The notes under the pieces were generated by a model that searched no databases, had not been told where the DNA came from, and saw nothing but the letters and a program-made list of their open reading frames with translations. From positions 14,166 through 78,165 of IMG/VR virus record IMGVR_UViG_2795385619_000008: DNA of 64,000 bases; one strand, 5' to 3'. This stretch comes from a virus. Taxonomy: Duplodnaviria; Heunggongvirae; Uroviricota; Caudoviricetes. A program made the translations under genes and the position numbers. Each line of letters opens with the position of its first letter. Position 1 is the stretch's first letter. Positions 18,494 to 61,326 of this stretch are shown here, one piece after another.

Positions 18494-18850
18494 TTGGGCC
18501 GTGTTGTGAGCCTTGTGGACGAACTCATTGATCTTGACGCTGAAACTGTTGTTTCTCTCTTTGGGGCGTTGGCAGCCGGTGGCGTACTAAGCAAGGCTAT
18601 TGAGTTCGTAACTGGTCGGCGCAAGCGCAAGGTCGATGAGGCGCAGGTGCTTTCGGCTATCTCAACGGCGATCCGTGAGGAAGTCCGAAAGGAAAACGCA
18701 GAACTACGGGATCGCCTAGATCAACTATTGGGCGCTGTGACCGGGCTGACGGACATCCTTGATGACCTCTTCCCGAAGATCACGGGCCTTGATGAGGCAG
18801 AGCGTATCGCCTTGCGGCGCAAGCTGAATCTCGCGAAGCGCGTCTCCTGA
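18494..18850 (+). CDS. Hypothetical protein.
   Basis: ORF. Confidence 0.4.
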   Translation: MGRVVSLVDELIDLDAETVVSLFGALAAGGVLSKAIEFVTGRRKRKVDEAQVLSAISTAIREEVRKENAELRDRLDQLLGAVTGLTDILDDLFPKITGLDEAERIALRRKLNLAKRVS

Positions 18851-24641: not shown

Positions 24642-25445
24642 TTAGAGTTGGCCGGTGCGTTTCCAGAAGCTGTAGTGCAGGCCAGTCAGAAAGTCATTCA
24701 GTTCGTCATGGTCGACGTGATCGGGGAGAATGGATCGCTCGATATTGACTTCGAGATTTTGGGTGTAAAGATCCAGCCAGTCCGTAACCCTCTTCAGGGG
24801 GTACCGGCCCCTTCGCACATCCCGTAGCCACTCCACCTCAAGTGGGCGCATAGGGATGACGATGTCATGGTCCCGCATTAGTTCCGTGCCCTGAATCGCC
24901 AGGCGTAGAGCGTGGTAGGCCATCTTCGTGTCGAAACCGAACTGCTCCACAAGCTCCCGGCGATTCTTGTGTGTCGAGACACCCTTTTCGCCGAGCATCC
25001 TGGCGCGCTGGGCTTTCAGATACCCGTGGAACCGCCATCCAGCGTCCTTCGAGAGGAACAGACTCCGGGCCCTCAAGAGTTGGGTACCCTCCAACGTCTG
25101 CTGGTAAATCTTTCCCTTCGGCGCGAACAGTGGGAGCAACACGGTTGGATTTCCCTGCGCTGCAAGGCGGGCCCACTTACTTAAGGCGTAGGTGGTGTGG
25201 TCCGTATCGCCGTGCTGACTGCGCACACCGTCAGGTATGCGTGTTCCGTCGACGTGCCAACGATCAGCGTACTGCTCGAATTTCTCAAGCCCCAGAACAC
25301 ATTCCGGTGGGGGAATGCATATACCCATCTCGTCATGGTCGTCGGTGCCCTCCATGGTCACACCGTGCAGACCGGATCCAACCTCGGTGAGGAGGATGAG
25401 GCCCTTTGACGCGATCTCCTTGTGGCGGGGGGAGTGGTGGCTCAC
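24642..25445 (-). CDS. Pol-beta superfamily nucleotidyltransferase.
   Basis: GS-x10-DxD motif (GSGLHGVTMEGTDDHDE). GTG start overlapping the TGA of the upstream gene. Confidence 0.55.
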   Translation of the reverse strand: MSHHSPRHKEIASKGLILLTEVGSGLHGVTMEGTDDHDEMGICIPPPECVLGLEKFEQYADRWHVDGTRIPDGVRSQHGDTDHTTYALSKWARLAAQGNPTVLLPLFAPKGKIYQQTLEGTQLLRARSLFLSKDAGWRFHGYLKAQRARMLGEKGVSTHKNRRELVEQFGFDTKMAYHALRLAIQGTELMRDHDIVIPMRPLEVEWLRDVRRGRYPLKRVTDWLDLYTQNLEVNIERSILPDHVDHDELNDFLTGLHYSFWKRTGQL

Positions 25446-25882
25446 TCGACCACCTCGGTGTAGGGGCCGATGTTGTTCATGTAGAACTCCGAAATGTAGT
25501 CGCCATCCAGTACAAGCGCGACGAAGGGAACGTCGGGATTGTACTGGACACACCAAGCGCCATTGACATAGCGGTATCTCCAGGCATAAGCCGTGTCCTC
25601 TTGCCAGGTGCTGCCATCCCGTGCTTCTTCGCAATCCAATGTCTGGAGCTCACGTGGTTTGACGGGAGCAGGAAACGCGCAGTCGTAGAGCTCGCCGTAC
25701 GCCTGCACTAGCTCCTCGGCCTTGCTTCGATTCCCGGAAAGGATGAAGCGGTGAACGTCGCCAATCGATATGGTCCACTCGTTCTGCCGTGCTGACGTGG
25801 CTACGGCAGAACACGGAATCGTGCCCGACTTGGCTTTGTACTCGATGGATGCTGAACGAGCGGGTGTGTAAGCAATTCCCAT
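25442..25882 (-). CDS. Hypothetical protein, the first gene of the reverse island.
   Basis: 146-aa ORF. Confidence 0.45.
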   Translation of the reverse strand: MGIAYTPARSASIEYKAKSGTIPCSAVATSARQNEWTISIGDVHRFILSGNRSKAEELVQAYGELYDCAFPAPVKPRELQTLDCEEARDGSTWQEDTAYAWRYRYVNGAWCVQYNPDVPFVALVLDGDYISEFYMNNIGPYTEVVE

Positions 25883-28017: not shown

Positions 28018-28875
28018 ATGCTGTTCACCCCTGACGGTGGACGTCGGGTCGCCTACTCGCGATGCTCGACGCTGGCTAAGGATCTCGACAAGCCCGGAGA
28101 TGGGTTGTTCGCCTGGCACCAGGCCAATGCCATGTTCGGTCTCGCGCAGAATCCCCAGCTTCTGAACCGCGTCAAGGCGATTATCGCCAAGGGCGGCTCC
28201 TGGGATTCGAGCAAGGGCGAGATCAAAGAGGTCATCTCACAGGCCGAGACTATCGGCGGGGCGATGAACAAGTCCTCCCGGGGAACTTCCATCCACGATT
28301 TCACGGGTGTTCTGGAAGAGGGGAACCTCGACTGGTCACTGGTCGATGAGGATATGAAGCCCATCCTGGATGGGTACCACGAATTCATCGCATCCCTTCC
28401 CGGGATGAACTTCCTGGCGCGTGAGGTCTTCCTGCAGGCGAATGACCGCATCGAGCTGCCGGATGGCCGGATCGCCACGTTGCGCGCTGCCGGATCCGCC
28501 GATCGCATTGTTGAGTGGAATGGCACTCGCTACATGGTCGACATCAAGACTGGTAAGGACGACCAGTACCGGATGGGTGTCTGCGCTCAGCTAGCGCTCT
28601 ACGTACTTGGCAAGCTCTACCAGGATTCCGCTGTCCATCAGGACATTCCGTGGGCCGACTTCTGGCCGAACGCCGATGGCACCGCTGAGTTCGCTGACCA
28701 TGAGTGTGATACCGAGACCGCTCTGATGTTCCATTGCCCGCAGACACCCGACTCGCGTGGCCGCTGGAAGTGGGGGATCTACGAGGTTCCCCTTGCGCGT
28801 GGCCGAGACATTGTTCTTGGTGGCCAGTGGGCCCGCAAGCTTCGTGTCGTTCCCGAGCTGAAGAGGGTTGCCTGA
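28018..28875 (+). CDS. PD-(D/E)XK exonuclease (Cas4/RecB-like), the partner of Erf.
   Basis: D...D-I-K motif (YMVDIKTGK). Confidence 0.55.
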   Translation: MLFTPDGGRRVAYSRCSTLAKDLDKPGDGLFAWHQANAMFGLAQNPQLLNRVKAIIAKGGSWDSSKGEIKEVISQAETIGGAMNKSSRGTSIHDFTGVLEEGNLDWSLVDEDMKPILDGYHEFIASLPGMNFLAREVFLQANDRIELPDGRIATLRAAGSADRIVEWNGTRYMVDIKTGKDDQYRMGVCAQLALYVLGKLYQDSAVHQDIPWADFWPNADGTAEFADHECDTETALMFHCPQTPDSRGRWKWGIYEVPLARGRDIVLGGQWARKLRVVPELKRVA

Positions 28876-29405
28876 TGTCTGCAGAACCATCCGATCCAGC
28901 AGAGCTCAGTCTCCATGGCGAGATCGATGACAAGGTCGCCCGTAAGACCCTGGGCCATCTTCGTGACATCGATATCAATACACCTGGGCGTCCGATCGAT
29001 CTGATCATCAACTCACCTGGTGGGTCTATGGAGCACGGGGACGCCATCTACGACGAGCTCGTGCGGATGTCTATTGCGGGTGGTGGAGGACACCACGTCA
29101 CCACGCGTGTACGCGGTCGTGCTGCATCTGCCGCTTCCTTGATCCTCCAGGCTGGTGATAAGCGCCTTGGTGGACGAATGAGCTACATCTACATGCACGA
29201 GCCGTTGTCTACGTTCCATGACCAGACGATGGCCCAGGTGCGCAATGAGCTCGAGTTCTGCGAGAAGTGGGTGGAGCGATACATCGACGCCCATGACCGC
29301 TGCAATATCTCATACGCCGAATTCCGTGAACGGATTCGGGACAAAGAGTGGTACCTGGCGATGGATGAGGCTGTGGCGCTGGGGATTGTGGACGGTATCG
29401 GATGA
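28875..29405 (+). CDS. clpP: ClpP-like serine protease.
   Basis: INSPGGS, GRAASAAS and MHEP motifs match the ClpP Ser-His region. Confidence 0.65.
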   Translation: MSAEPSDPAELSLHGEIDDKVARKTLGHLRDIDINTPGRPIDLIINSPGGSMEHGDAIYDELVRMSIAGGGGHHVTTRVRGRAASAASLILQAGDKRLGGRMSYIYMHEPLSTFHDQTMAQVRNELEFCEKWVERYIDAHDRCNISYAEFRERIRDKEWYLAMDEAVALGIVDGIG

Positions 29406-46093: not shown

Positions 46094-46160
46094 GCACTGA
46101 CTTCTCGGCGTTTGGGCCCCGGTTCCTCAGTGGATCGGGGCCCATTTTTATTCGCCAGAG

Positions 46161-46227: not shown

Positions 46228-46298
46228 TCGGATGTGGTCCAGTGGCAGGACAGCGGCTTCCAAACCCGCCAACGGGAGTTCGATTCTCTCCATCCGGG
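46228..46298 (+). tRNA. tRNA-Trp (CCA).
   Basis: Hand-folded cloverleaf. Acceptor TCGGATG/CATCCGG, T-loop TTCGATT, anticodon loop TTCCAAA. Confidence 0.6.
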
Positions 46299-46353
46299 CA
46301 ATGCCTTTGTGTGGCATGACATTTGAAAACTCCATAGAGATAGTAGTTTCAAT

Positions 46354-46699
46354 GGGGCTGACAGGCATTCGATTGCGTGTCAACTTACTGAGAAGCGTGC
46401 CGGGAAGCAACGCCCGCAACAGTGCAACCTTGATAAGCGCAAACGCTCATCAGTCCGACTACGTCCTAGCGGCGTAGTCCGTTGGGGTACAACGGTTCAC
46501 CCGTTCCTTGTACCAATCCACCGTCGCCAATACGGGGAACCCTCTGGCTCACGCCGTCGCACAGAGGCTAAACGTGCTGCGGCAGAACCCTCGTATCAGG
46601 CTGCCCAGCCAAACCGGAGGTAAACGGTATAACAGGGATACGCACGTAGAAGGCAGTGAAGAGAAGCGCAAGACTGCGGTTCAATTCCGCACAGCTCCA
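46354..46699 (+). ncRNA. ssrA: tmRNA (SsrA) encoding the tag ANAHQSDYVLAA.
   Basis: 5-prime GGGGCTG pairs with 3-prime CAGCTCC-A. T-arm TGCGG-TTCAATT-CCGCA. Tag ORF GCA AAC GCT CAT CAG TCC GAC TAC GTC CTA GCG GCG TAG at 46439-46477. Confidence 0.8.
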
Positions 46700-46985
46700 C
46701 GAGAGGGAGGCCACCGGTTCGATCCTGGTCAGCTGGGGAGCGCCCTGGCTGTAGCTCAGTGGCAGAGCGCCCTCGTTAAACGACGCGTGGCCCCGGCTCG
46801 CATAACCAGAACCAAGTACGAGTAGCGCTCGGAACGGAGCGGTTCTTACGGGGAATGTGGAGAGACATCTCCGCGCGGCCATCGGGATGCCGATGGTCAT
46901 ATGGATGACAGGGTAATCCCGCAGTAGGTTCCGATAAAAAGGATCCGACCTGAGGTGCCGTACCTGGGCCGTGTCGTCCATTAAT

Positions 46986-47056
46986 CAGGCTGTAGTGAAA
47001 CGGGATCATGCCGGTTTTGGGTACCGGTGGTGGAGGTTCAATTCCTCCCAGCTTGA
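46986..47056 (+). tRNA. tRNA-Pro (TGG).
   Basis: Hand fold. Anticodon loop TTTGGGT. Confidence 0.6.
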
Positions 47057-47168
47057 CGAGAAGAGTTGTCGGTATATCTCCACGCGCAGGGAACCGTCCG
47101 TCTGATCGCGAACGATAGACGAAAATTCGCGCGCTACGCCCCCCTAGCGTCAACATGGTGGGCACCAT

Positions 47169-47241
47169 TGGCCTGTAGCTCAATTGGTAGAGCAGCGAGC
47201 TGTTAACTCGCGAGGTGTAGGTTCGACTCCTGCCAAGCCAG
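47169..47241 (+). tRNA. tRNA-Asn (GTT).
   Basis: TAGCTCAATTGGTAGAGC D-arm. Loop CTGTTAA. Confidence 0.65.
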
Positions 47242-47351
47242 CGTTGGAACGTGGTGCAAGCGTAGAGCAGCCAAGCGCGACGGCGAGTGGTGAGCACATC
47301 GGCAGTCGACGGTCGAAGATGCCAGGGAAAAGCTGTTCGTTCCTAACCAAT

Positions 47352-47428
47352 CTCGTCGCGAATAGGCGATCAACGCAGACTGTAAATCTGTTCCTTCGGG
47401 TGTGCAGGTTCGACTCCTGACGGCGAGA
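47352..47428 (+). tRNA. tRNA-Tyr (GTA).
   Basis: Loop CTGTAAA, long variable arm. Confidence 0.55.
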
Positions 47429-47507
47429 CAATGAGACTGGTGTGGAACGAACTGAAGGCTTGCGGCAAGCAGAAACGTTCCCCCGCCCGCAAGGCCAGTC
47501 TCAGCCT

Positions 47508-47580
47508 TGATGATTGGTGTAACCGGCAGCACACGTGGCTCTGAACCACGTAGGTCTTGGTTCGAATCCAGGGTCATCAG
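47508..47580 (+). tRNA. tRNA-Gln (CTG).
   Basis: Loop CTCTGAA. Confidence 0.55.
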
Positions 47581-47662
47581 CTTTTGGGTCAACCGGTAGG
47601 TACCTGCCATGAGTTGACTGTCCGGTGGCTCGCATGCCCTCCGTCACAGAAGCATGCCGCAT

Positions 47663-47747
47663 GGAAGGCTCCGCTGAATGGTCGGCAACCGGCGTCGAAT
47701 ACCGGGGCAGGCAGTGCGTCCTGGGGGTTCGAGTCCTCAGCTTTCCG
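47663..47747 (+). tRNA. tRNA-Ser (CGA).
   Basis: Long variable arm. Loop GTCGAAT. Confidence 0.45.
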
Positions 47748-47829
47748 CTCCTAAAGTCTTCCACCTGCCTGAATGGTGGCTAATCAGGTGTGCTCCAAGA
47801 TCGCGTGGACACGGCAACAGGTGGACCAA

Positions 47830-47913
47830 GGAGAGCGCAACTAGTTAGGTGACTAGGCCCGGTTGCTAACCGGATCGCTGCTCTGCAGTAGGTTTCGAAT
47901 ACCTGCCTCTCCA
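47830..47913 (+). tRNA. tRNA-Ser (GCT).
   Basis: Loop TTGCTAA, long variable arm. Confidence 0.55.
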
Positions 47914-48363
47914 CGCACCCACACGAACTCTGTTGTGGGAGATATAGTTAAGACATTCGGGGCATGGCCCATAAGCCACCGCAAGGTGGTGAAAGGTGGG
48001 GTGACAACCCACCACCCGCAAGGGCAATCCATGCAATCCAATCCTTGAGCAGTCAGTGATGGCTGCCAGGTCGTGAGTCTGCCCGTGACCGACGCCGAAT
48101 GTGGTGAGGTCAGCAGCCCGTATCGTGCGGGTGCTCCGTGGGAGTAATGCAGGGGACAGGACAAGCGGCCTGTGGAACGGAAGGAACTGAGTCCGAGCCT
48201 CGCAAGCAAGGGCGTGTTCCATGATCGATCTCGCGTCGGGCGACGGCTCGCAATGCGGTTGAGAGAGAGTGTAATTAGCCCCGCCAGGCGAAAGCACGAG
48301 AGGCGTGAAGCATTCTGTGCCACAAAAGGGTTCGGAACTTCATGGGGAAGCACGTCTTTGGTC

Positions 48364-48436
48364 AAACATCTAGCTCATTTGGTAGAGCATCTGTCGCATA
48401 AACAGTTGGTAGCCGGTTCAATTCCGGCGATGTATA
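48364..48436 (+). tRNA. tRNA-Met (CAT).
   Basis: TAGCTCATTTGGTAGAGC. Loop CGCATAA. Confidence 0.55.
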
Positions 48437-48729
48437 CAAGCAAAAGTCCTTCCCCTGCCGAGGAGCAAAAGCGCCTTAATCCCAGACCTTCGGGAATCTG
48501 GGCCGCACAATAGTCCCGCAAGGTGAGTGCGGTTTGTAGGCAAGTACTGCAGCAGTGAGACGGCCATCTCATCGCGAAGGGAAAGCCGCAGAGTAGCTTT
48601 CGGCATGACGAGTGGTTCACGGTAACGGACCAGGCGTGAGAACTAGGTCAGGGATGGCCTGGAGAAGCAGCGAATCAATAATGCTGCGAAAGGTTCTCGA
48701 TAGCGGGTGTACTCTCAGCCTCTAACAAT

Positions 48730-48803
48730 CGACTCTTAGCTCAGTTAGGTAAGAGCGACCGGTTGAAGCCCGGTGCGCCCCCGTTCGATTCGGGGAGAGT
48801 CGG
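48730..48803 (+). tRNA. tRNA-Phe (GAA).
   Basis: Perfect acceptor CGACTCT/AGAGTCG. Loop TTGAAGC. Confidence 0.65.
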
Positions 48804-48925
48804 CGTGTAAGGGAAACCAGGTTCCACAGCTACTGGTGAAAAGCTGGGCACTCCACGTAAAAGGTCGCGTTGACTCGCGCGGATACGGTAGGCGATGAAC
48901 TGTCCTACCGGAATGAGTCACTCAT

Positions 48926-49000
48926 AGCGGGTTAGAGAAGTTCGGCCATCTCGCGAGCCTCATAAGCTTGAGACCACCGGTTCAAATCCGGTACCCGCCA
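48926..49000 (+). tRNA. tRNA with anticodon CAT (Met, or Ile-lysidine). The 1:72 pair is mismatched.
   Basis: Loop CTCATAA. D-stem GAGA/TCTC. Confidence 0.55.
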
Positions 49001-49064
49001 CAGGGTCCGCTCGCCAGCAAGTCTGGTCCTGAAACCCACGGAGACGGTTAAAGAGTCGGGCAAT

Positions 49065-49139
49065 CCCGTTGTTGGGCAATGGAGCGCCCACCGCCCTACG
49101 AAGGCGCAACGCATGCAGGTTCGAATCCTGTCAACGGGT
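49065..49139 (+). tRNA. tRNA-Arg (ACG).
   Basis: Acceptor CCCGTTG/CAACGGG. Loop CTACGAA. Confidence 0.6.
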
Positions 49140-49203
49140 CTGAGCGCTGTCGGTACAAAGCCCGAACGAACAGAGATGCCATGCTGCTCTGGCCAGCGCC
49201 ATA

Positions 49204-49274
49204 CCTTGTGTAGCTCAATGGCAGAGCTCCTCGCTGTGACCGAGGTTATCGCGGTTCAACTCCGCGCATAGGGA
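49204..49274 (+). tRNA. tRNA-His (GTG).
   Basis: Loop CTGTGAC. Confidence 0.55.
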
Positions 49275-49297
49275 CGTACAGACACTGAAAGGCCAAG

Positions 49298-49462
49298 ATG
49301 ACTGACAAGCTGCGCACGGGTATCGCCCATATCGACATCGTCAAGGCGGTGAACGATCTGATCGATCGCATGGATGCTCTTGAGGGCTTCCATTACGCGG
49401 TGGATGAGAAGCCGGTGGCCAAGAAGGCTCCCGCAAAGAAGGTAGCCCCACCTGCAGAGTAG
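49298..49462 (+). CDS. Small basic protein (54 aa) embedded in the tRNA array.
   Basis: ATG preceded by GAAAGG. MTDKLRTGIAHIDIVKAV...KKAPAKKVAPPAE. Confidence 0.35.
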   Translation: MTDKLRTGIAHIDIVKAVNDLIDRMDALEGFHYAVDEKPVAKKAPAKKVAPPAE

Positions 49463-49471
49463 GTGGCATAA

Positions 49472-49543
49472 GGCGAAGTGAGTGAGTGGCTAGCTGGCAG
49501 GCTGCAACCCTGACCCACACCGGTTCGAATCCGGTCTTCGTCT
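49472..49543 (+). tRNA. tRNA-Cys (GCA).
   Basis: Loop CTGCAAC. Confidence 0.55.
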
Positions 49544-49613
49544 CCGACGCGCTCGATGGGGCTGGTGAGCCATCGTAAAGCCGACGCGTTAGACCATGAA
49601 ATATCGGCACCAT

Positions 49614-49688
49614 GCTCCGGTAGCCCAATTTGGCAGAGGCGACAGGCTTAGACCCTGGAGGTTGTGGGTTCGAATCCCTCTCGGAGTA
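49614..49688 (+). tRNA. tRNA with anticodon TAG (a Leu anticodon) but a short class-I variable arm.
   Basis: Loop CTTAGAC. Variable AGGTT. Discriminator A. Confidence 0.45.
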
Positions 49689-49757
49689 CTCGACGGGTGG
49701 CCCCCGTGAAAGGGCCTGCAGTACTTCGGTAAAGCTGCGTCATCAAACACCGAGCCT

Positions 49758-49832
49758 GGTCGGCTAGGCAAACCTGGCAAAGCCGCCGAGCTCAAACCTC
49801 GGTGTCTGCGAGTTCGATCCTCGCGCCGACTA
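49758..49832 (+). tRNA. tRNA with anticodon CAA (a Leu anticodon) but a short class-I variable arm.
   Basis: Loop CTCAAAC. Variable TGTCT. Discriminator A. Confidence 0.45.
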
Positions 49833-49833
49833 C

Positions 49834-50046
49834 GTGAACAAGTATCGCCTGACAGCTGCGGGGGTCTCATATCTTGCCTGGGGCAAGGAGCTCACCCCGG
49901 AAGGTGCTAGGGCCCTGGTTGAAGCAGAGTGCGGCGTTAGGGCCAGTGACTGTCAGCGATACCACCCAGAGCGCTCACGTGGGCGCGATGGATACAGGAA
50001 GGCGTACCCGCATGTGTGGGCAGCGTTTCCCGCGATCACAAGTTAA
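49834..50046 (+). CDS. Possible small protein gene within the tRNA array.
   Basis: GTG-start ORF of 70 aa between tRNAs. Confidence 0.25.
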   Translation: MNKYRLTAAGVSYLAWGKELTPEGARALVEAECGVRASDCQRYHPERSRGRDGYRKAYPHVWAAFPAITS

Positions 50047-50047
50047 T

Positions 50048-50118
50048 GGGCGTTGGTGAAACGGAATCACCCTAGACTTTTAATCTATGAGTTGAGGGTT
50101 CAAATCCCTTGCGCCCTA
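50048..50118 (+). tRNA. tRNA-Lys (TTT), imperfect acceptor.
   Basis: Loop CTTTTAA. Confidence 0.45.
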
Positions 50119-50119
50119 C

Positions 50120-50191
50120 GGGAGTATAGTTAAGCGGTTATAACTCTTGGCTCTTACCCATGAATCCCAGGTTCGATCCCTGGTGCTCCCA
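50120..50191 (+). tRNA. tRNA-Lys (CTT).
   Basis: Loop CTCTTAC. D-stem GTTA/TAAC. Confidence 0.55.
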
Positions 50192-50192
50192 C

Positions 50193-50264
50193 TAGCTCGT
50201 CGTCCAATGGTTAGGACACCGCTCTGATAAGGCGGAAACCAGTGTTCAACTCACTGCGGGCTTA
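50193..50264 (+). tRNA. tRNA-Ile (GAT).
   Basis: Loop CTGATAA. Confidence 0.5.
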
Positions 50265-50271
50265 CCAACTT

Positions 50272-50342
50272 ACGACTGTAACTCGGACAGACCAACGGCC
50301 TCCTAAGCCGCGTGGAAGCAGGTTCAACTCCTGTCGGTCGTG
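50272..50342 (+). tRNA. tRNA-Arg (CCT).
   Basis: Loop CTCCTAA. Confidence 0.5.
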
Positions 50343-50390
50343 CGCCAGTATGCATTTCGTACCCCTCGGGCCTACGTTCTGCATACTCAT

Positions 50391-50464
50391 GCGAGTGTGA
50401 TGTTTAACGGTTAGCATCTCTGTCTTCCAAACAGATCGTGCCAGTTCGAATCTGGTCACTCGTT
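50391..50464 (+). tRNA. tRNA-Gly (TCC).
   Basis: Loop CTTCCAA. Confidence 0.55.
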
Positions 50465-50590
50465 CGACGTCCTGGGATGGACGACCCTACGGTGGAGACT
50501 TCGGTTGTCGCCGGAAGCTTGTGCGCGGATAGAGCATCCGCCAGGGACCTCTCGCTGCAGCATTGGCACCCTCAACCAAAAGCTCGATAT

Positions 50591-50658
50591 GCCTGGTTAG
50601 TCTGGGACGAAAGCTGGCTTACATCCAGCCAAGCGGTGTTCGATTCACCGACTGGGTA
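50591..50658 (+). tRNA. tRNA-Val (TAC), short D-arm.
   Basis: Loop CTTACAT. Confidence 0.45.
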
Positions 50659-50663
50659 CGCAG

Positions 50664-50737
50664 GCCTCATTAGCTCATCCGGCTAGAGCACTTCCTTAGT
50701 AACGAAGAGGCGCGGGGTTCGAGACCTCGATGAGGCC
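50664..50737 (+). tRNA. tRNA-Thr (AGT).
   Basis: Perfect acceptor GCCTCAT/ATGAGGC. Loop TTAGTAA. Confidence 0.55.
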
Positions 50738-50976
50738 CGACGTTCAGTCTTTCTGCATGTTCAGCTTTGTTGAACAGCAGGGGGATTGAACACTTGGGGG
50801 CGCATGTTCCAAGGTGGCGACCGATCCTTGCAAGATTGGTGTGGTCGCGTTCAATTCGCACCGTCTCCACGGGAGTTTTGGCCAAGCAGCTCCAGGGTTT
50901 GATTCCCAGAAAGTTGGCTCAGGTTGTTCGTACCTGCCCCAGTGGCCTCGAAAACCGCTGGGGGTAAACGTCCTAA

Positions 50977-51049
50977 GCACGTGTAGCTCAATCGGGAGAG
51001 CGCCACCCTGTCAAGGTGGAGGCAGCGGGATCAAAACCCGCCACGGGCG
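50977..51049 (+). tRNA. tRNA-Asp (GTC) with a non-canonical T-loop ATCAAAA.
   Basis: Loop CTGTCAA. Confidence 0.55.
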
Positions 51050-51050
51050 C

Positions 51051-51389
51051 GTGAGTAGAGAACTAGTGCTGTCAGTGACCCTGAAGGATTGTCGTGTAGA
51101 CACATTCCGATCAGGTGGCAAGGGTGGCCAGAACCAGAACAAGCGCGAGACGGGTGTGCGGATTACGCACGAGCCATCTGGTGCGATTGGTGAGTCGCGC
51201 GAGGAGCGTAGTCAGCTTCAGAACAAGCAGGCTGCGTTTCGTCGAATGGCGGGCTCACCGAAGTTCCAGCTCTGGGTGAAGCGTCAAGTCGGTCGTGATG
51301 ACCTGCAGAAGGCCCAGGTGGAGCGCGATATGTGGCCGGTGAACCTCAAGACCGAGGTTCGCGAGTCCGGCAAATGGGTTGAGCAGTAA
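51051..51389 (+). CDS. GGQ-motif peptidyl-tRNA hydrolase domain protein (stand-alone class-I release-factor catalytic domain, ArfB/PrfH-like).
   Basis: DCRVDTFRSGGKGGQNQNKRETGVRITHEPSGAIGESREERSQLQNKQ matches release-factor domain 3. GTG start 2 nt after tRNA-Asp. Confidence 0.65.
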   Translation: MSRELVLSVTLKDCRVDTFRSGGKGGQNQNKRETGVRITHEPSGAIGESREERSQLQNKQAAFRRMAGSPKFQLWVKRQVGRDDLQKAQVERDMWPVNLKTEVRESGKWVEQ

Positions 51390-51430
51390 CCCGTTCGATG
51401 TTCGGTATTGACCGCACAGCGAACACTCAA

Positions 51431-51501
51431 GGTCCATTGGTGTAGTGAGAGCACACCACCCTCTCAAGGTGTTGGTGCGGGTTTGATTCCCGCATGGACT
51501 A
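51431..51501 (+). tRNA. tRNA-Glu (CTC).
   Basis: Loop CTCTCAA. T-loop TTTGATT. Confidence 0.55.
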
Positions 51502-51505
51502 CTCG

Positions 51506-51692: not shown

Positions 51693-51988
51693 GCGCCAAT
51701 CCCTATGACTTCGAGAAGATTCCGACCGTCACGTCAGAGATGATCCGATTCGCACGGGACATCATGTGGCGTGGTGTTTCGTCTGGCCCATCTAGTCCCG
51801 GTACGAGCCTGATCAATGAGGTCGTGCTCTGGCTCGAAGAGCGTGCTGCGAGTTACCAGGCAGTTGAAGAGCAGGAAGCTGTCGAGAGGGCCTTCATCGA
51901 CGCCGTGGAAGAAGAGGTCGGACAGGGCTGGACGTATCCAGGCGCGATCCGGAAGGTTCTTTCTACCCACAAACTGGAGAAGTTGTGA
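51689..51988 (+). CDS. Hypothetical protein.
   Basis: ATGA overlap. Confidence 0.4.
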   Translation: MSANPYDFEKIPTVTSEMIRFARDIMWRGVSSGPSSPGTSLINEVVLWLEERAASYQAVEEQEAVERAFIDAVEEEVGQGWTYPGAIRKVLSTHKLEKL

Positions 51989-52082
51989 AGCGCCTGGACG
52001 ATTGGGCCTGGTACGTGTCACTCGCCATGGGTGGGTTCGTGATCATCCTGGTCCTGCTCTTCCCGGTTCTGATGGAGCTGAG

Positions 52083-52619
52083 GTGGGGGCATTGAGCGAG
52101 GCTGACCGCGTGAGTCGCCGTGTGCTTGTCACTGGTAGCCGCGACTGGCCGGACCCGAAGCCGGTTATCTACGCCCTCAACAGCCAGTGGCTCAAGGCGC
52201 ACAAGAAGGGCGAGAAGCTCGTTGTTGTGCAAGGGGAGTGTCCCAAGGGTGCTGATCTCTTCGCTGCCGAGTGGGCCCAGTTCCGCGAGGATCGCGGTTG
52301 CCGCGTCAAGAATGAGTCGCATCCCGCAGATTGGGATCGCGACTGTGACTACCACTGCACCCATCCACCTCGGTGGAAGTGGGGTAAGCCGTACTGTCCG
52401 CTCGCTGGACATCTACGCAACCAGGCGATGGTGGACCTTGGCGCTGACATCTGCATTGCATTCCCACTGAAGGACTCTCGGGGTACTTGGGACTGCATGA
52501 AGCGCGCTAAGAAGGCTGGAATCTCCGTCATCAACTTCGGGTACGACGGGCCCCTGTGCGCTCCCTGGATCGACTATCACATTGATCCACATACAGGTCC
52601 GTGTGCACGTGCCCGCTGA
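52083..52619 (+). CDS. Rossmann-fold SLOG/DUF2493-like (DprA/Smf-related) protein with a C-terminal Cys/His cluster.
   Basis: RVLVTGSRDW...VVVQGECPKGADLFAAEWA. GTG start. Confidence 0.45.
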   Translation: MGALSEADRVSRRVLVTGSRDWPDPKPVIYALNSQWLKAHKKGEKLVVVQGECPKGADLFAAEWAQFREDRGCRVKNESHPADWDRDCDYHCTHPPRWKWGKPYCPLAGHLRNQAMVDLGADICIAFPLKDSRGTWDCMKRAKKAGISVINFGYDGPLCAPWIDYHIDPHTGPCARAR

Positions 52620-52738: not shown

Positions 52739-53092
52739 ATGAGTGAACTGAAGCAAATGATTGTCATGCGTAAGGATCTCGGCATGCGTGCCGGGAAGAT
52801 GGTTTCACAAGGTGCTCACGCCTCTCTGGGTGCCGTTCTCGAGTACCGCGATGACCCACGGGTGGTTGAGTGGCTCGCCGGTTCGTTCACGAAGGTCTGT
52901 GTGCGGGTGGAGAGCGAAGACGCACTGATTGACCTCTGGGGCAAGGCAATTAAAGCCAACCTCCCAAACGCGCTGATTACGGATAACGGTAAGACCGAAT
53001 TCCATGGCATCTTGACCACTACGTGCTGCGCTATCGGCCCCGCAACGGCTGAAGAGCTTGCACCGATCACGGGGGCGTTGAAGCTTCTATGA
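52739..53092 (+). CDS. pth2: Peptidyl-tRNA hydrolase, Pth2 family.
   Basis: MIVMRKDLGMRAGKMVSQGAHAS signature, 117 aa. Confidence 0.7.
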   Translation: MSELKQMIVMRKDLGMRAGKMVSQGAHASLGAVLEYRDDPRVVEWLAGSFTKVCVRVESEDALIDLWGKAIKANLPNALITDNGKTEFHGILTTTCCAIGPATAEELAPITGALKLL

Positions 53093-60382: not shown

Positions 60383-60613
60383 CTAGCTCCCTGACACAAC
60401 TTGCCGACACTGGTATGTGACCGGGTCGCACAAGACTGGATTAGTCGTCCAACCCCCATACGTGCCTGGTGTGTTCCAGGTGGGCATGAGGGGACCGTTG
60501 TATCCCGGCTGATACTTGCACACGTCAAAACGCGCACAGTCGGGAACCGTTGGGGGAGTGAGAGATACACCCCCGGCAATGAGGATGGCCGCGAGTATCA
60601 TGTTCTCCTCCAT
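60383..60613 (-). CDS. Small secreted or lipoprotein-like Cys-containing protein.
   Basis: N-terminal hydrophobic segment. Confidence 0.35.
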   Translation of the reverse strand: MEENMILAAILIAGGVSLTPPTVPDCARFDVCKYQPGYNGPLMPTWNTPGTYGGWTTNPVLCDPVTYQCRQVVSGS

Positions 60614-61242
60614 AACTCTTGCTCGATGAGTGACCGACTACGCCACCCTTGCTCTGTCCTCACCATCTGGTGGTGGTAGATACCACCGCTCTGGTAGTGC
60701 CCTTCAGTGCCTTCAACCTCGTATGTCATCGGGTTGATGTAGTAGGCCATAACCTTGGCGACGTCACCATCTAGTTCAATGGAGATCTGGCCGATGAGGT
60801 GCTGCCTGTGAGTGAACAGTGAGAGTGCCTGTGGCAGCCACTCTTTCACCTCAGAGAACGAGCCGACAATGCCGCCAGCGGTGGAGTAATCGATCTGAGC
60901 ATCGGCAGTGAACACCGAGTCGAGTTCAGTCCAGTTGCCCAGATCGATTGCCAACGTGTAGCGCGTGATGACATCCGTGATGTCCTGCCGATCCTGCAGG
61001 CTTAGTGCCACTGTGCAGTACCTATGCCTCATAGAGCTGGCCACGATGTCCGCGACATCGTCCGGGGTGAGACCCTGCTCCTTGTTCAGACCCTCAGCGA
61101 TGGTGACCGCATCACTGAGCTGCCGGTGGTGTCCGGGTAGTGGCTCATAACCTGCCGCATTCTCGGTGATCTTGGCGATTGAATAGCCCTGGTGGTCGCG
61201 ACTGAAGTAAGACTCGTTGGCGTGGTAACAGATTCGTGCCAT
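60598..61242 (-). CDS. Hypothetical protein with an NTF2/SnoaL-like C-terminal domain.
   Basis: Ribosome-binding site GAGAAGGGA. Confidence 0.45.
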   Translation of the reverse strand: MARICYHANESYFSRDHQGYSIAKITENAAGYEPLPGHHRQLSDAVTIAEGLNKEQGLTPDDVADIVASSMRHRYCTVALSLQDRQDITDVITRYTLAIDLGNWTELDSVFTADAQIDYSTAGGIVGSFSEVKEWLPQALSLFTHRQHLIGQISIELDGDVAKVMAYYINPMTYEVEGTEGHYQSGGIYHHQMVRTEQGWRSRSLIEQELWRRT

Positions 61243-61326
61243 GTTGTATCCCTTCTCGTGTTGGTGCTGAGCACACCAGACGGGCCGCGAGAAACACTCG
61301 CGACCCATCCTGCCTACTCAGGCTCA

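What the first reader, a model, noticed from the sequence alone, without database searches (positions are those of the whole stretch)
46354..46699. Phage-encoded tmRNA with the tag ANAHQSDYVLAA
The tRNA-like ends are present, GGGGCTG at the 5-prime end and a T-arm plus CAGCTCC-A at the 3-prime end. An internal ORF starts at a GCA resume codon and ends ...VLAA-stop. The tag resembles the mycobacterial SsrA tag (ADSHQRDYALAA). This implies the phage tags stalled-ribosome products for proteolysis. That is notable given the phage-encoded ClpP-like gene.
Basis: seen in the sequence. Interest (0 to 1): 0.65.

Follow-up and report, generated by a model that had tools for sequence, protein, structure and literature searches.

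The report
Known-type tmRNA in mycobacterial prophage
A genuine, structurally intact ribosome-rescue RNA (tmRNA) gene sits at the head of the tRNA array of a Mycobacterium abscessus-type prophage, but the same gene is already annotated and published in its sibling phages, so the finding is correct and ordinary.

Summary
ARAGORN and Rfam RF00023 (101.7 bits against a gathering score of 47, E 1.3e-38, full-length) both call a one-piece tmRNA at 46354-46699/46702(+), with the tag ANAHQSDYVLAA. In a 16-member phage lineage, 92.7% of cells pair (33-47% in slid controls). Fifteen pairs carry compensatory changes, and the G3·U alanine identity pair is invariant.

The window is a serine-integrase prophage of the MabI/cluster M group (Mclasvirinae). 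It is 100% identical to NCBI assembly GCA_900140955.1 over the 16.4 kb compared. Sibling prophages carry the syntenic gene already annotated as tmRNA (prophiGD54-2, tag ANAHQSDYALAA; published by Dedrick 2021). An IMG/VR contig has exactly this tag.

The tag matches the M. abscessus host tag (ADSHQRDYALAA) at 8 of 12 positions, including the C-terminal LAA. The RNA is only about 52% identical to host ssrA, so it is not a recent capture. No SmpB is encoded, so host factors are needed.

The ClpP-like gene exists (28872-29405). It is a non-canonical S14 protease found in 467 phage records, including lineages where no tmRNA has been catalogued, so the proposed link is unsupported.

A GGQ release-factor-like ORF, Pth2, 20 tRNAs and a GOLLD RNA form a translation-maintenance island around the tmRNA. 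Verdict: a new member of a known kind, of low interest.

The parts
46354..46699 (+). tmRNA gene, mature 5' end to discriminator A (346 nt). Rfam's match runs to 46702 because CGA aligns to the model's CCA; CCA is not encoded.
   Evidence: ARAGORN; Rfam RF00023 101.7 bits, E 1.3e-38; 3' end ...CAGCTCC-A-CGA. Host ssrA likewise lacks an encoded CCA.
46354..46360 (+). Acceptor stem 5' strand GGGGCUG. It pairs with 46692-46698 (CAGCUCC) and includes the G3·U pair, the alanyl-tRNA synthetase identity element.
   Evidence: All 7 pairs are invariant in 16 of 16 sequences, G·U 16 of 16.
46373..46400 (+). Helix 2, 5' strand (H2a 46373-46377, H2b 46385-46390, H2d 46395-46400). It pairs with 46642-46671 (H2d 46642-46647, H2b 46654-46659, H2a 46667-46671).
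   Evidence: H2a is 100% paired with 2 compensatory pairs. H2d is invariant. H2b is only 61% paired in the MAFFT alignment (register differs between subgroups).
46401..46425 (+). Pseudoknot 1: stem 1 46401-46404/46413-46416 (CGGG/CCCG); stem 2 46407-46409/46423-46425 (GCA/UGC). About 10 nt shorter than host PK1.
   Evidence: stem 1 is invariant; stem 2 has one pair switching C-G to A-U in 8 of 16 sequences. Host comparison.
46439..46477 (+). mRNA-like domain: resume codon GCA, tag ANAHQSDYVLAA, stop UAG.
   Evidence: The frame is conserved in all lineage members. 8 of 12 identical to the host tag ADSHQRDYALAA.
46457..46479 (+). Helix 5 (GACUACG/CGUAGUC, 7 bp), enclosing the end of the tag ORF and the stop codon.
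   Evidence: 95.5% paired, 2 pairs with compensatory change (for example C-G to U-A, accompanying the UAG to UGA stop change in cluster M).
46486..46536 (+). Pseudoknot 2: stem A 46486-46492/46508-46514 (GGUACAA/UUGUACC); stem B 46500-46504/46532-46536 (CCCGU/ACGGG).
   Evidence: stem A has 5 of 7 pairs with compensatory change; stem B is 100% paired.
46539..46638 (+). PK3-PK4 region, 100 nt, hypervariable. Rfam aligns nested stems CCUCUG/CAGAGG and CCUC..GGCUG/CAGCC..GAGG. The pseudoknot second stems are not verified.
   Evidence: alignment. Single-sequence folding is not better than shuffles (z -0.96). 36% identity to L016 here against 97-98% in the flanks. Mosaic pattern across the lineage. 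This exact segment is absent from IMG/VR and JGI metagenomes.
46675..46691 (+). T-arm UGCGG-UUCAAUU-CCGCA.
   Evidence: 100% paired, 3 of 5 pairs with compensatory change. The T-loop GGUUCAAUUCC is identical to that of host ssrA.
46316..46344 (+). Upstream control region: sigma-70-like ATGACA-17-GATAGT ending 10 nt before the mature 5' end. It overlaps a lineage-conserved motif TTGAnAACTnnATAGnG (46323-46339).
   Evidence: Promoter scan, (1 found against 0.5 expected, so weak alone). The motif is conserved in 14 of the 15 aligned lineage members and degenerate in Kumao. One exact copy in the window, with a 2-mismatch chance-level site at 18597. The function as a promoter is inferred.
46228..46299 (+). 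tRNA-Trp(cca), the conserved left neighbour of the tmRNA and first gene of the 20-tRNA array (46228-51502). It is preceded by a strong terminator-like hairpin at 46113-46144.
   Evidence: The order tRNA-Trp then tmRNA holds in all relatives except Kumao.
51051..51389 (+). Context: 112-aa stand-alone GGQ (RF-1 domain) protein between tRNA-Asp and tRNA-Glu, a candidate stop-codon-independent peptidyl-tRNA hydrolase / rescue factor.
   Evidence: Pfam RF-1 64.5 bits. GGQ motif in the translation. 91% identical to the prophiGD54-2 'RF-1 peptide chain release factor'. Below all NCBIfam cut-offs for RF1, RF2, PrfH and ArfB.
52739..53092 (+). Context: Pth2-type peptidyl-tRNA hydrolase.
   Evidence: Pfam PTH2 104.7 bits. 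NCBIfam TIGR00283 91.6 bits against a cut-off of 82.
28872..29405 (+). It is not demonstrably connected to the tmRNA.
   Evidence: Pfam CLP_protease 75.2 bits. Below NCBIfam ClpP and head-maturation cut-offs. Ser/His/Asp align with ClpP but the N-terminal ~17 residues are missing. 467 phage records carry homologues.

Best explanation
Window 46354-46699(+) is a bona fide one-piece tmRNA (ssrA) gene carried by a temperate, serine-integrase mycobacteriophage of the MabI/cluster M lineage (Vilmaviridae, Mclasvirinae). The phage is integrated in the genome of assembly GCA_900140955.1.

Shown: the RNA has every sequence and structure element needed for trans-translation. These are an alanine-identity acceptor stem (G3·U), a T-arm, helix 2, PK1, a GCA resume codon, a 12-codon tag whose stop lies in helix 5, and PK2. 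These elements are maintained by compensatory substitutions across 16 phage and prophage copies.

Inferred mechanism:
- The gene is transcribed from its own conserved upstream element at the head of the tRNA array, probably during lytic growth. [quoted passage not shown]
- The transcript is processed, given its CCA, charged by host alanyl-tRNA synthetase, and bound by host SmpB and EF-Tu. None of these factors is phage-encoded.
- It enters ribosomes stalled on truncated or damaged mRNAs, releases them, and appends ANAHQSDYVLAA. Its C-terminal LAA should deliver the product to host ClpX/ClpC1-ClpP1P2.

Together with 20 tRNAs, a GGQ release-factor-like protein, Pth2 and an RlaP nucleotidyltransferase (plus RtcB in siblings), it forms a translation-maintenance island. 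The island would keep ribosomes available for phage protein synthesis when the host supply is limiting or under attack.
For: Identity: ARAGORN; RF00023 at 101.7 bits against a gathering score of 47, E 1.3e-38, full-length.

Structure under selection: 55 pairs, 92.7% of cells paired against 33-47% when partners are slid. Fifteen pairs have changes on both sides (0 of 500 shuffles reach this). G3·U is invariant.

Tag: the frame and 12-codon length are kept in 14 of 16 copies; the other two have longer in-frame tags. 8 of 12 identical to the M. abscessus host tag, including LAA. The Mtb ssrA tag, identical to the M. abscessus tag, is degraded by ClpXP1P2 and ClpC1P1P2 (PMC4416901).

Lineage and synteny: a tmRNA lies at the same place in all 12 GenBank relatives examined. 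It is annotated as tmRNA in prophiGD54-2, prophi86-1, prophiT49-2, Bongo, Rey, Aziz and Kumao. [quoted passage not shown]

Not a host copy: about 52% overall identity to M. abscessus ssrA.

Host dependence: no SmpB in the window (best tblastn E 2.8; the probe was validated as SmpB at 194 bits).

Context genes.

Expression precedent: Wildcat tmRNA (PMC7474061).

Conserved upstream motif.
Against: There are no expression, aminoacylation, SmpB-binding or tagging data for this RNA or any MabI/cluster M tmRNA.

PK3 and PK4 could not be verified in the window copy. The region is hypervariable, and its nested fold is no better than shuffles (z -0.96).

The promoter-like match is weak on its own (1 found against 0.5 expected).

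PK1 is about 10 nt shorter than in the host, and the core is only about 65-68% identical to host ssrA. Compatibility with host SmpB is therefore assumed, not shown.

Sister lineages carry tags ending VGA, VGV or VAA, or long acidic tags. Delivery to ClpX is therefore not a universal property of the phage lineage.

The counts use a structure derived from the window sequence, which favours it over the slid controls.
Confidence: 0.78

Rival explanations
1. The same RNA and the same chemistry, but its selective value is counter-defence rather than general capacity. It would rescue ribosomes stalled on mRNAs and tRNAs cut by host or rival-prophage toxins (mRNA interferases, anticodon nucleases). 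It would work with the tRNA array, the GGQ protein, Pth2, the RlaP nucleotidyltransferase and (in siblings) the RtcB ligase.
For: The tmRNA is co-located with RNA-repair and rescue genes: RF-1/GGQ and PTH2, RlaP 'RNA repair pathway' nucleotidyltransferase at 105.4 bits, and RtcB-like ligase in prophiGD54-2. Morgado & Vicente 2018 note rescue genes (RF-1, Pth, tmRNA) inside mycobacterial tRNA arrays (PMC5966550). M. abscessus prophages carry many toxin cassettes (PMC8092301).
Against: No defence system is identified as the target. RtcB has been lost from this particular phage; only a 33-aa remnant is left. That argues the repair module is dispensable here. This account is not exclusive of the main explanation.
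Confidence: 0.25
2. The RNA acts mainly as a decoy that titrates host SmpB (or AlaRS/EF-Tu) and so inhibits host trans-translation. This was proposed for the TLD-only ssrA fragment of mycobacteriophage DS6A.
For: No phage SmpB is encoded, so the phage RNA must compete with host tmRNA for SmpB. Hudson et al. 2014 note that a TLD-only molecule strongly inhibits tmRNA, perhaps by titrating SmpB (PMC4131195).
Against: A decoy needs only the tRNA-like domain. Here the resume context, the 12-codon frame, the stop codon and helix 5 are conserved, with compensatory changes in H5, PK1 and PK2. That indicates selection on the messenger function.
Confidence: 0.06
3. One reading: the phage tmRNA feeds tagged proteins to the phage's own ClpP-like protease, forming a phage-autonomous tagging and degradation pair.
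For: Both genes are present in this phage and in MabI/cluster M relatives. The catalytic Ser/His/Asp align with ClpP.
Against: The protein is below all NCBIfam ClpP cut-offs and lacks the N-terminal region of ClpP in the alignment. It lies 17 kb away in the recombination module. Homologues occur in 467 phage records, including mycobacteriophage lineages with no catalogued tmRNA (PMC4131195; those genomes were not scanned here). In several records the homologue is annotated as a head maturation protease. No phage ClpX/ClpC-like unfoldase was seen in the relative's annotation. From general knowledge, tag recognition is by the unfoldase, not by ClpP.
Confidence: 0.05
4. The gene is a non-functional passenger: a decaying captured host ssrA, or a remnant of an attP site (many mycobacteriophages integrate into the host tmRNA gene).
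For: Phages that integrate at ssrA carry part of it in attP (PMC8092301; PMC10865867). The PK3-PK4 region is highly divergent.
Against: The gene is full-length, with both ends present. It is about 52% identical to host ssrA, so it is not a recent capture. It is conserved at the same locus across MabI, cluster M, Kumao and an M. palauense prophage, with compensatory substitutions. MabI phages use a serine integrase and attB sites inside protein-coding genes, not ssrA. The integrase lies 10 kb away.
Confidence: 0.03

Closest known systems
tmRNA genes of M. abscessus cluster MabI prophages (prophiGD54-2 gene 104, prophi86-1 gene 112, prophiT49-2 gene 110; IMG/VR contig UViG_2795385681)
   Same: Same locus (tRNA-Trp, then tmRNA, then tRNA-Pro, then the rest of the array) and the same phage backbone at about 85% nucleotide identity. 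The core of the RNA is 84-97% identical. Tags are ANAHQSDYALAA (1 difference), AASAQSDYALAA, and in the IMG/VR contig exactly ANAHQSDYVLAA.
   Different: The 100-nt PK3-PK4 segment of the window copy matches none of them: 36% identity to the otherwise 97-98% identical IMG/VR copy. It has no exact match in IMG/VR or the JGI metagenomes. The window phage has lost RtcB and tRNA-Ala relative to prophiGD54-2.
tmRNAs of cluster M mycobacteriophages (Bongo gp92, Rey 105, Aziz 103; also present but unannotated in MrMagoo, Estes, Nanosmite, Reindeer, SlimJimmy) and of Kumao
   Same: Homologous gene at the syntenic position after tRNA-Trp. Core identity is 76-81%. The conserved upstream motif, G3·U, PK1, H5 and PK2 architecture are shared, as is the 12-codon tag with a ..DYA.. 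core.
   Different: Their tags are AAFVAADYAVGA, AAFVAADYAVGV and AAFVDADYAVAA (4-6 of 12 identical to the host tag), with the stop codon UGA instead of UAG. Kumao and the M. palauense prophage have long acidic tags of about 30 residues. The window tag is much closer to the host degron.
Chromosomal ssrA of Mycobacterium abscessus (367 nt, tag ADSHQRDYALAA) and M. smegmatis (369 nt, ADSNQRDYALAA)
   Same: One-piece actinobacterial architecture and 12-residue tag. Shared elements are GGGGCUGA, GAAGCGUGCCGG (H2d), the AUAAGCGC/UUAAGCGC resume context, CAUCAG…GACUACG in the tag, the T-loop GGUUCAAUUCC, the acceptor CAGCUCCA, and no encoded CCA (PMC6133939).
   Different: Only about 52% identical overall (65-68% in the TLD, H2 and tag; 39% in PK2-4). 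PK1 is about 10 nt shorter and the RNA is about 20 nt shorter. Four tag substitutions: D2N, S3A, R6S, A9V. It is phage-borne and lies within a tRNA array.
[quoted passage not shown]
   Same: Phage genomes that carry their own tmRNA together with many tRNAs. These have been known since at least the 2014 tmRNA Website survey. [quoted passage not shown]
   Different: These are different phage lineages. No nucleotide similarity to them was detected with the window tmRNA as query: all 34 blastn hits were MabI, cluster M or Kumao. DS6A has only the tRNA-like domain, whereas the window gene is complete.

Membership tests
tmRNA, standard one-piece (Rfam RF00023) | Covariance-model score at or above the curated gathering score, full-length match | tested here: met
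   101.7 bits against 47, E 1.3e-38, model 1-374 of 374, not truncated. Independent ARAGORN call.
tmRNA, standard one-piece (Rfam RF00023) | tRNA-like domain: 7-bp acceptor stem formed by the 5' and 3' ends, G3·U70-type pair for AlaRS, T-arm with a GUUCNANNC-type loop, discriminator A | tested here: met
   GGGGCUG/CAGCUCC with G3·U, invariant in 16 of 16. T-arm 5 bp, 100% paired, with 3 covarying pairs. Discriminator A at 46699.
tmRNA, standard one-piece (Rfam RF00023) | 3'-terminal CCA (encoded or added after transcription) | tested here: inconclusive
   The gene reads A-CGA, so CCA is not encoded. It is variably encoded in relatives (ACCA in Rey, Bongo, Nanosmite and SlimJimmy). Host ssrA also lacks it. 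Addition by the host CCA-adding enzyme is assumed.
tmRNA, standard one-piece (Rfam RF00023) | mRNA-like domain: alanine resume codon (GCN), a short ORF ending in a hydrophobic/Ala-rich degron, and a stop codon in or next to helix 5 | tested here: met
   GCA at 46439, ANAHQSDYVLAA, UAG within the 3' strand of helix 5. The frame is conserved in all 16 copies.
tmRNA, standard one-piece (Rfam RF00023) | Long-range helix 2 connecting the TLD to the pseudoknot ring | tested here: met
   H2a is 100% paired with 2 compensatory pairs. H2d is 6 bp and invariant. H2b is paired in the window, but its register differs in cluster M (61% paired in the alignment).
tmRNA, standard one-piece (Rfam RF00023) | PK1 immediately upstream of the resume codon | tested here: met
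   Stem 1 CGGG/CCCG is invariant. Stem 2 has a C-G to A-U switch in 8 of 16 sequences. It is shorter than host PK1.
tmRNA, standard one-piece (Rfam RF00023) | PK2-PK4 downstream of helix 5 | tested here: inconclusive
   PK2 is met (stem A has 5 of 7 covarying pairs; stem B is 100% paired). For PK3 and PK4 only nested stems are aligned by Rfam. The region cannot be aligned across the lineage, and its fold is not better than shuffles.
tmRNA, standard one-piece (Rfam RF00023) | Works with SmpB; is aminoacylated and tags proteins | not testable with these tools
   No SmpB gene in the window, so host SmpB is required. No biochemical data exist.
Mclasvirinae (cluster M / MabI) phage tmRNA lineage | Syntenic position at the head of the tRNA array directly after tRNA-Trp, in a phage of this backbone | tested here: met
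   The window is colinear with prophiGD54-2.
Mclasvirinae (cluster M / MabI) phage tmRNA lineage | Shared core sequence (H2d+PK1 signature GAAGCGTGCCGGG-N5-7-ACGCCCGNAAYAGT) and the upstream motif TTGAnAACTnnATAGnG | tested here: met
   The signature is present in all members. It is found in only 1 of 185,579 GTDB species representatives (M. palauense) and in 13 IMG/VR contigs.
   Best NCBIfam ClpP model 72.9 bits against a cut-off of 228; TIGR00493 48.7 against 308.6. It is also below the ClpP-related head maturation protease cut-off (63.4 against 120). The Pfam superfamily domain is met (75.2 against 20.2).
   Ser (AAS), His (MHEP) and Asp (RDKEW) align with ClpP 6hwm. The alignment starts at query residue 16 against chain residue 33, so the N-terminal region is missing. 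No structure was modelled.
ArfB / PrfH-type rescue factors (for the RF-1 ORF 51051-51389) | GGQ catalytic motif plus family-level score | tested here: not met
   GGQ is present and the Pfam RF-1 domain is met (64.5 against 35). PrfH scores 52.6 against 166.65 and ArfB 24.3 against 100. It is a stand-alone GGQ domain of unassigned subfamily.

The most novel reading that the evidence does not exclude
The PK3-PK4 part of this phage tmRNA lineage may be an exchangeable cassette rather than a slowly drifting structural spacer. Copies whose cores are 97-99% identical have unrelated middles, while divergent cores share middle segments. The window carries a 100-nt variant seen nowhere else.

If this reflects diversifying selection, phage tmRNAs would be a new arena of host-phage conflict. 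Possible drivers are escape from a host nuclease or defence that recognises phage tmRNA, or a second function embedded in the cassette. The tmRNA, GGQ protein, Pth2, GOLLD RNA and the unannotated structured spacer RNA would then be one coordinated counter-defence island.
Probability: 0.12. Interest if true: 0.5.

Novelty: new member of a known kind. Interest (0 to 1): 0.15.

Why it matters
It matters little as a discovery. Phage-borne tmRNAs have been catalogued since at least 2014, and this phage group's tmRNA has been annotated and discussed in print.

It still has some practical value:
- It confirms that the first-stage reader can recognise a tmRNA from raw sequence, to the exact base.
- It shows that ARAGORN-based phage annotation misses this gene in at least five GenBank cluster M records where Rfam finds it.
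- It documents that the prophage-borne tags in M. abscessus track the host degron far more closely than those of the M. smegmatis-isolated cluster M phages do.

Nobody has yet tested what a phage gains from its own tmRNA. This lineage is a tractable place to ask, because it is temperate, inducible and has a mass-distinguishable tag. M. abscessus prophages also influence phage-therapy outcomes.

Tried and rejected
- **ARAGORN on relatives.** It missed the tmRNA in 6 of 12 loci, so Rfam was used instead.
- **Single-sequence folding.** The whole RNA gives z -2.39, and the MFE does not reproduce the pseudoknotted structure. The PK3-PK4 segment gives z -0.96. This was uninformative, so covariation was used.
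- **Phage SmpB.** tblastn with a Pfam-validated SmpB probe found nothing (best E 2.8).
- **RtcB in the window.** Only a 33-aa remnant remains.
- **Dispersed cluster M repeat?** The upstream motif has one exact copy in the window, so it is not one of the dispersed repeats.
- **Sub-threshold Rfam hits around the gene.** tmRNA_permuted (32.7 and 20.2 bits, gathering score 47) and YrlA (21.6 bits, gathering score 69) were judged echoes of tRNA-like features.
- **Source of the window.** One species hit in the GTDB representatives (M. palauense, not the source). Thirteen IMG/VR contigs, none identical. No exact match to the PK3 segment in IMG/VR or the JGI metagenomes. An exact-protein look-up finally located the source.
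- **Cluster M paper.** Pope et al. 2014 (PMC3958112) is not held in the library. What it says about the tmRNA is known only through citing papers.
- **Literature search for 'GOLLD' plus 'mycobacteriophage'.** It returned only an irrelevant paper.
- **attP-remnant and host-capture ideas.** Both were considered and rejected (see rival explanations).
Full report
**Observation.**
- ARAGORN reports a tmRNA at 46354-46700(+) with tag ANAHQSDYVLAA*.
- Rfam's RF00023 model matches 46354-46702 over its full length at 101.7 bits (gathering score 47, E 1.3e-38).
- The 5' GGGGCUG (46354-46360) pairs with CAGCUCC (46692-46698), with G·U as the third pair.
- The next bases are CGA, so CCA is not encoded.
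- The tag ORF runs from the GCA resume codon at 46439 to the UAG ending at 46477. The stop lies in the 3' strand of a perfect 7-bp helix 5.

**What the window is.**
- The region 40-55 kb is about 85% identical, over two-thirds of its length, to M. abscessus prophages prophi86-1, prophiGD54-2 and prophiT49-2. It is more distantly related to cluster M mycobacteriophages. All are classified in Vilmaviridae, Mclasvirinae.
- Gene order follows prophiGD54-2: capsid, tail, lysis, ERF/Cas4/ClpP-like, replication, tRNA array, serine integrase.
- The last 5.7 kb of the window is still prophage.
- An exact-protein look-up placed the window in NCBI assembly GCA_900140955.1 (contig FSPP01000011.1, 178 kb) and in a Logan assembly of run ERR373998. 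Both are identical to the window over 16,354 bases, including the tmRNA. The tool does not name the organism. M. abscessus is likely from the relatives, but this was not verified.

**Homologues.**
- In prophiGD54-2, prophi86-1 and prophiT49-2 the syntenic gene (tRNA-Trp, tmRNA, tRNA-Pro) is annotated as tmRNA. The tags are ANAHQSDYALAA, AASAQSDYALAA and AASAQSDYALAA.
- Bongo, Rey, Aziz and Kumao also carry annotated tmRNAs.
- Rfam finds a full-length tmRNA (82.7-118 bits) at the same place in every relative examined. That includes MrMagoo, Estes, Nanosmite, Reindeer and SlimJimmy, where GenBank has no tmRNA feature, and six loci where ARAGORN fails.
- A signature built from invariant H2d/PK1 columns hits only one of 185,579 GTDB species representatives, a prophage-like tRNA array in Mycolicibacterium palauense. 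It also hits 13 IMG/VR contigs.
- One IMG/VR contig (UViG_2795385681, 80 kb) has exactly the window's tag.

**Structure.**
I wrote the canonical tmRNA helices in window coordinates (H1, H2a/b/d, PK1, H5, PK2, T-arm; all perfectly paired in the window). I then counted them on a 16-sequence MAFFT alignment (A2).
- 92.7% of cells pair, against 33-47% when the 3' partners are slid by 1-3 columns.
- Fifteen of 55 pairs have changes on both sides, and 0 of 500 shuffles reach that number.
- Compensatory changes occur in H2a, PK1 stem 2, H5, PK2 stem A and the T-arm.
- The acceptor stem and its G3·U pair are invariant.
- Caveat: the structure was derived from the window sequence, which favours it over the slid controls. 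The number of independently covarying helices makes the conclusion robust all the same.
- PK3 and PK4 could not be validated. Rfam aligns nested stems there, but the region cannot be aligned across the lineage, and its fold is no better than shuffles (z -0.96).

**Tag.**
- All 16 copies keep a GCN resume codon after an AUAA(G/C)(C/U)GC context and an open frame.
- Fourteen have 12 codons. Kumao and the M. palauense copy have tags of about 30 codons, acidic and ending in VAA.
- Host tags are ADSHQRDYALAA for M. tuberculosis (PMC4416901) and ADSNQRDYALAA for M. smegmatis (PMC6133939).
- I recovered real host ssrA genes next to prophages that integrate at ssrA. The prophage side of one locus is 100% identical to M. 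abscessus MabG prophages. Its ssrA is therefore the M. abscessus gene: 367 nt, tag ADSHQRDYALAA.
- The window tag is 8 of 12 identical to it, including DY.LAA. Cluster M tags are only 4-6 of 12 identical.
- At the RNA level the window gene is about 52% identical to host ssrA (65-68% in the TLD, H2 and tag; 39% in PK2-4), and PK1 is about 10 nt shorter. It is actinobacterial in type but an old phage lineage, not a recent capture.

**Mechanism.**
Shown: every element needed for alanylation, ribosome entry, frame setting and termination is present and under purifying or compensatory selection.

Inferred: the RNA depends on host factors.
- No SmpB is encoded (best tblastn E 2.8; the probe was verified as SmpB at 194 bits).
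- No AlaRS or CCA-adding enzyme appears in the sibling's annotation.
- The RlaP nucleotidyltransferase at 24642-25634(-) belongs to an RNA-repair family, not a CCA-adding one.
- The C-terminal LAA should direct tagged products to host ClpX/ClpC1-ClpP1P2, which degrade substrates carrying the Mtb ssrA tag (identical to the M. abscessus tag). From general knowledge of the E. coli system, ClpX reads the last three residues, so the A9V change is probably tolerated. This was not tested.

**Neighbourhood.**
- A terminator-like hairpin at 46113-46144 closes the upstream operon.
- tRNA-Trp and the tmRNA open a 5.3-kb array of 20 tRNAs.
- The array contains a GOLLD RNA and a 112-aa GGQ protein.
- It is followed by Pth2.
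- Dedrick et al. [quoted passage not shown]
- Morgado & Vicente 2018 list tmRNA, RF-1 and Pth inside mycobacterial tRNA arrays.

**Rivals.**
- A counter-defence role is compatible with the main account and cannot be separated from it here.
- An SmpB-decoy role (as for the TLD-only DS6A fragment) is disfavoured by conservation of the messenger part.
- An attP remnant or decaying capture is excluded. The gene is full-length, divergent from the host copy and covarying, and MabI phages use a serine integrase with attB sites inside protein-coding genes.

**The ClpP remark.**
The gene is real (28872-29405; Pfam CLP_protease 75.2 bits) and keeps Ser/His/Asp. The link to the tmRNA is not supported, for these reasons.
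- It scores 72.9 against a 228-bit cut-off for ClpP, and 63.4 against 120 for the ClpP-related head maturation protease.
- It lacks the N-terminal segment of ClpP in the alignment.
- It sits among ERF/Cas4 early genes, 17 kb from the tmRNA.
- It has homologues in 467 phage records, including Cjw1-like, Omega-like and Gordonia phages. Those genomes were not scanned for tmRNA here; the 2014 RefSeq survey found none outside eight Bxz1-like/Wildcat phages.

**Novelty.**
- Phage ssrA genes were listed in 2014: Bxz1-like phages, Wildcat, Bacillus phage G.
- The cluster M tmRNA is annotated in Bongo and Rey.
- The MabI tmRNA is described in two papers.
- The exact tag exists in IMG/VR.
- The one new thing about the window copy is its 100-nt PK3-PK4 segment. 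It is 36% identical to the otherwise 97-98% identical IMG/VR copy and absent from IMG/VR and the JGI metagenomes.
- Across the lineage this segment is mosaic. MrMagoo and Aziz have 98% identical cores and middles at 50%, which is baseline. Aziz and Bongo have 92% identical cores and 97% identical middles. GD54-2 and Reindeer share a 23-nt exact stretch despite 84% identical cores.
- This is the only feature with some potential for novelty.

**Verdict.**
Observation confirmed. Interpretation supported, except for the ClpP link. A new member of a known kind. Interest 0.15.

Noticed in passing
window 48298-48721 (+): A GOLLD RNA (RF02032, 191.6 bits against a gathering score of 150, E 1.9e-52) lies inside the tRNA array, 1.6 kb downstream of the tmRNA. 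An apparently intact tRNA-Met(cat) (48364-48437) is embedded in it. Siblings have a GOLLD at the same place, where ARAGORN and GenBank call an odd 'tRNA-???(tg)'. GOLLD accompanies the tmRNA in MabI prophages, MrMagoo and the M. palauense array. It is probably the '~430 nt structured RNA' of Morgado & Vicente 2018.
   Followed up: partly
window 46855-46985 (+): The spacer between the tmRNA and tRNA-Pro holds an invariant block (TACGGGGAATGTGGAGAGACATCTCCGCG) and several hairpins. RNAalifold on 5 MabI copies predicts 41 pairs, 8 of them with compensatory changes. The exact 22-mer is present in 8 of the 38 loci held at the time, all MabI-type, and in no cluster M locus. There is no Rfam hit. It is a candidate unannotated structured RNA.
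   Followed up: partly
window 46539-46638 (+), and alignment A2: The PK3-PK4 region of the phage tmRNA lineage is mosaic. Near-identical cores carry unrelated middles (window vs L016 97%/59%, MrMagoo vs Aziz 98%/50%, where about 45-60% is baseline). Divergent cores share middles (Aziz vs Bongo 92%/97%; GD54-2 and Reindeer share a 23-nt exact stretch). The window's variant is unique among all sequences examined.
   Followed up: partly
window 46323-46339 (+): The motif TTGAnAACTnnATAGnG lies 16-31 nt upstream of the tmRNA 5' end in 14 of the 15 aligned lineage members (MabI, cluster M, M. palauense) and is degenerate in Kumao. There is one exact copy in the window. It overlaps a weak sigma-70-like match, ATGACA-17-GATAGT. 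It may be a dedicated promoter or regulatory site.
   Followed up: partly
window 46703-46795 (+): tRNA-like fragments directly follow the tmRNA: a T-arm-like CCGGTTCGATCCTGG and a D-arm-like GTAGCTCAGTGGCAGAGC. Neither ARAGORN nor Rfam calls them as a tRNA. There is a weak YrlA (Y RNA-like) match of 21.6 bits, E 0.07, well below the gathering score of 69. They are probably debris of tRNA-array rearrangement.
   Followed up: no
window 51051-51389 (+): A 112-aa stand-alone GGQ (RF-1 domain) protein sits between tRNA-Asp and tRNA-Glu. It is 91% identical to the 'RF-1 peptide chain release factor' of prophiGD54-2. It falls below the family cut-offs for RF1, RF2, PrfH and ArfB. In siblings an RtcB ligase follows tRNA-Glu immediately after it. 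From memory, that arrangement recalls PrfH-RtcB ribosome rescue and repair pairs.
   Followed up: partly
window 52002-52100 (+), within ORF 51816-52619: RtcB-like RNA ligase, 441 aa in prophiGD54-2, is reduced here to a 33-aa N-terminal remnant (79% identity). The remnant lies in the same ORF as a DprA/SLOG (YAcAr) domain. This phage has lost the ligase while keeping the tmRNA, the GGQ protein and Pth2.
   Followed up: partly
window 52739-53092 (+) and 24642-25634 (-): A Pth2-type (archaeal/eukaryotic-type) peptidyl-tRNA hydrolase (Pfam 104.7 bits; TIGR00283 91.6 against a cut-off of 82) and an RlaP 'RNA repair pathway' nucleotidyltransferase (105.4 bits). Both are further translation and RNA-maintenance genes in the same phage.
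   Followed up: no
loci L004, L008, L009, L011, L012 (MrMagoo, Nanosmite, Reindeer, Estes, SlimJimmy): These GenBank cluster M records have no tmRNA feature, and ARAGORN finds none. Rfam nonetheless finds full-length tmRNAs (95.8-111.5 bits) with intact tags (AAFVAADYAVGV, AAFVAADYAVGA, AAFVDADYAVAA). The published statement that Aziz but not Estes has a tmRNA therefore looks like an annotation artefact.
   Followed up: yes
locus L015 2505-2945 (-), Mycolicibacterium palauense CECT 8779 NZ_NVQF01000007.1: This is the only GTDB species representative carrying the phage tmRNA signature. It is a 441-nt tmRNA (104.7 bits) in a tRNA array with a GOLLD RNA. ARAGORN does not call it. The tag read from the alignment is long and acidic (AVDTDADFAAWEAELDFSVEDIEAEFLVAA) and unlike the host-type tag.
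   Followed up: partly
window 60598-61308 (-): A 236-aa ORF with a SnoaL_4 domain lies inside the prophage right arm; the region still matches prophiGD54-2. Dedrick 2021 report that MabI phages integrate into host gene MAB_3230, which also has a SnoaL_4 domain. The phage may carry a homologue of its own integration target.
   Followed up: no
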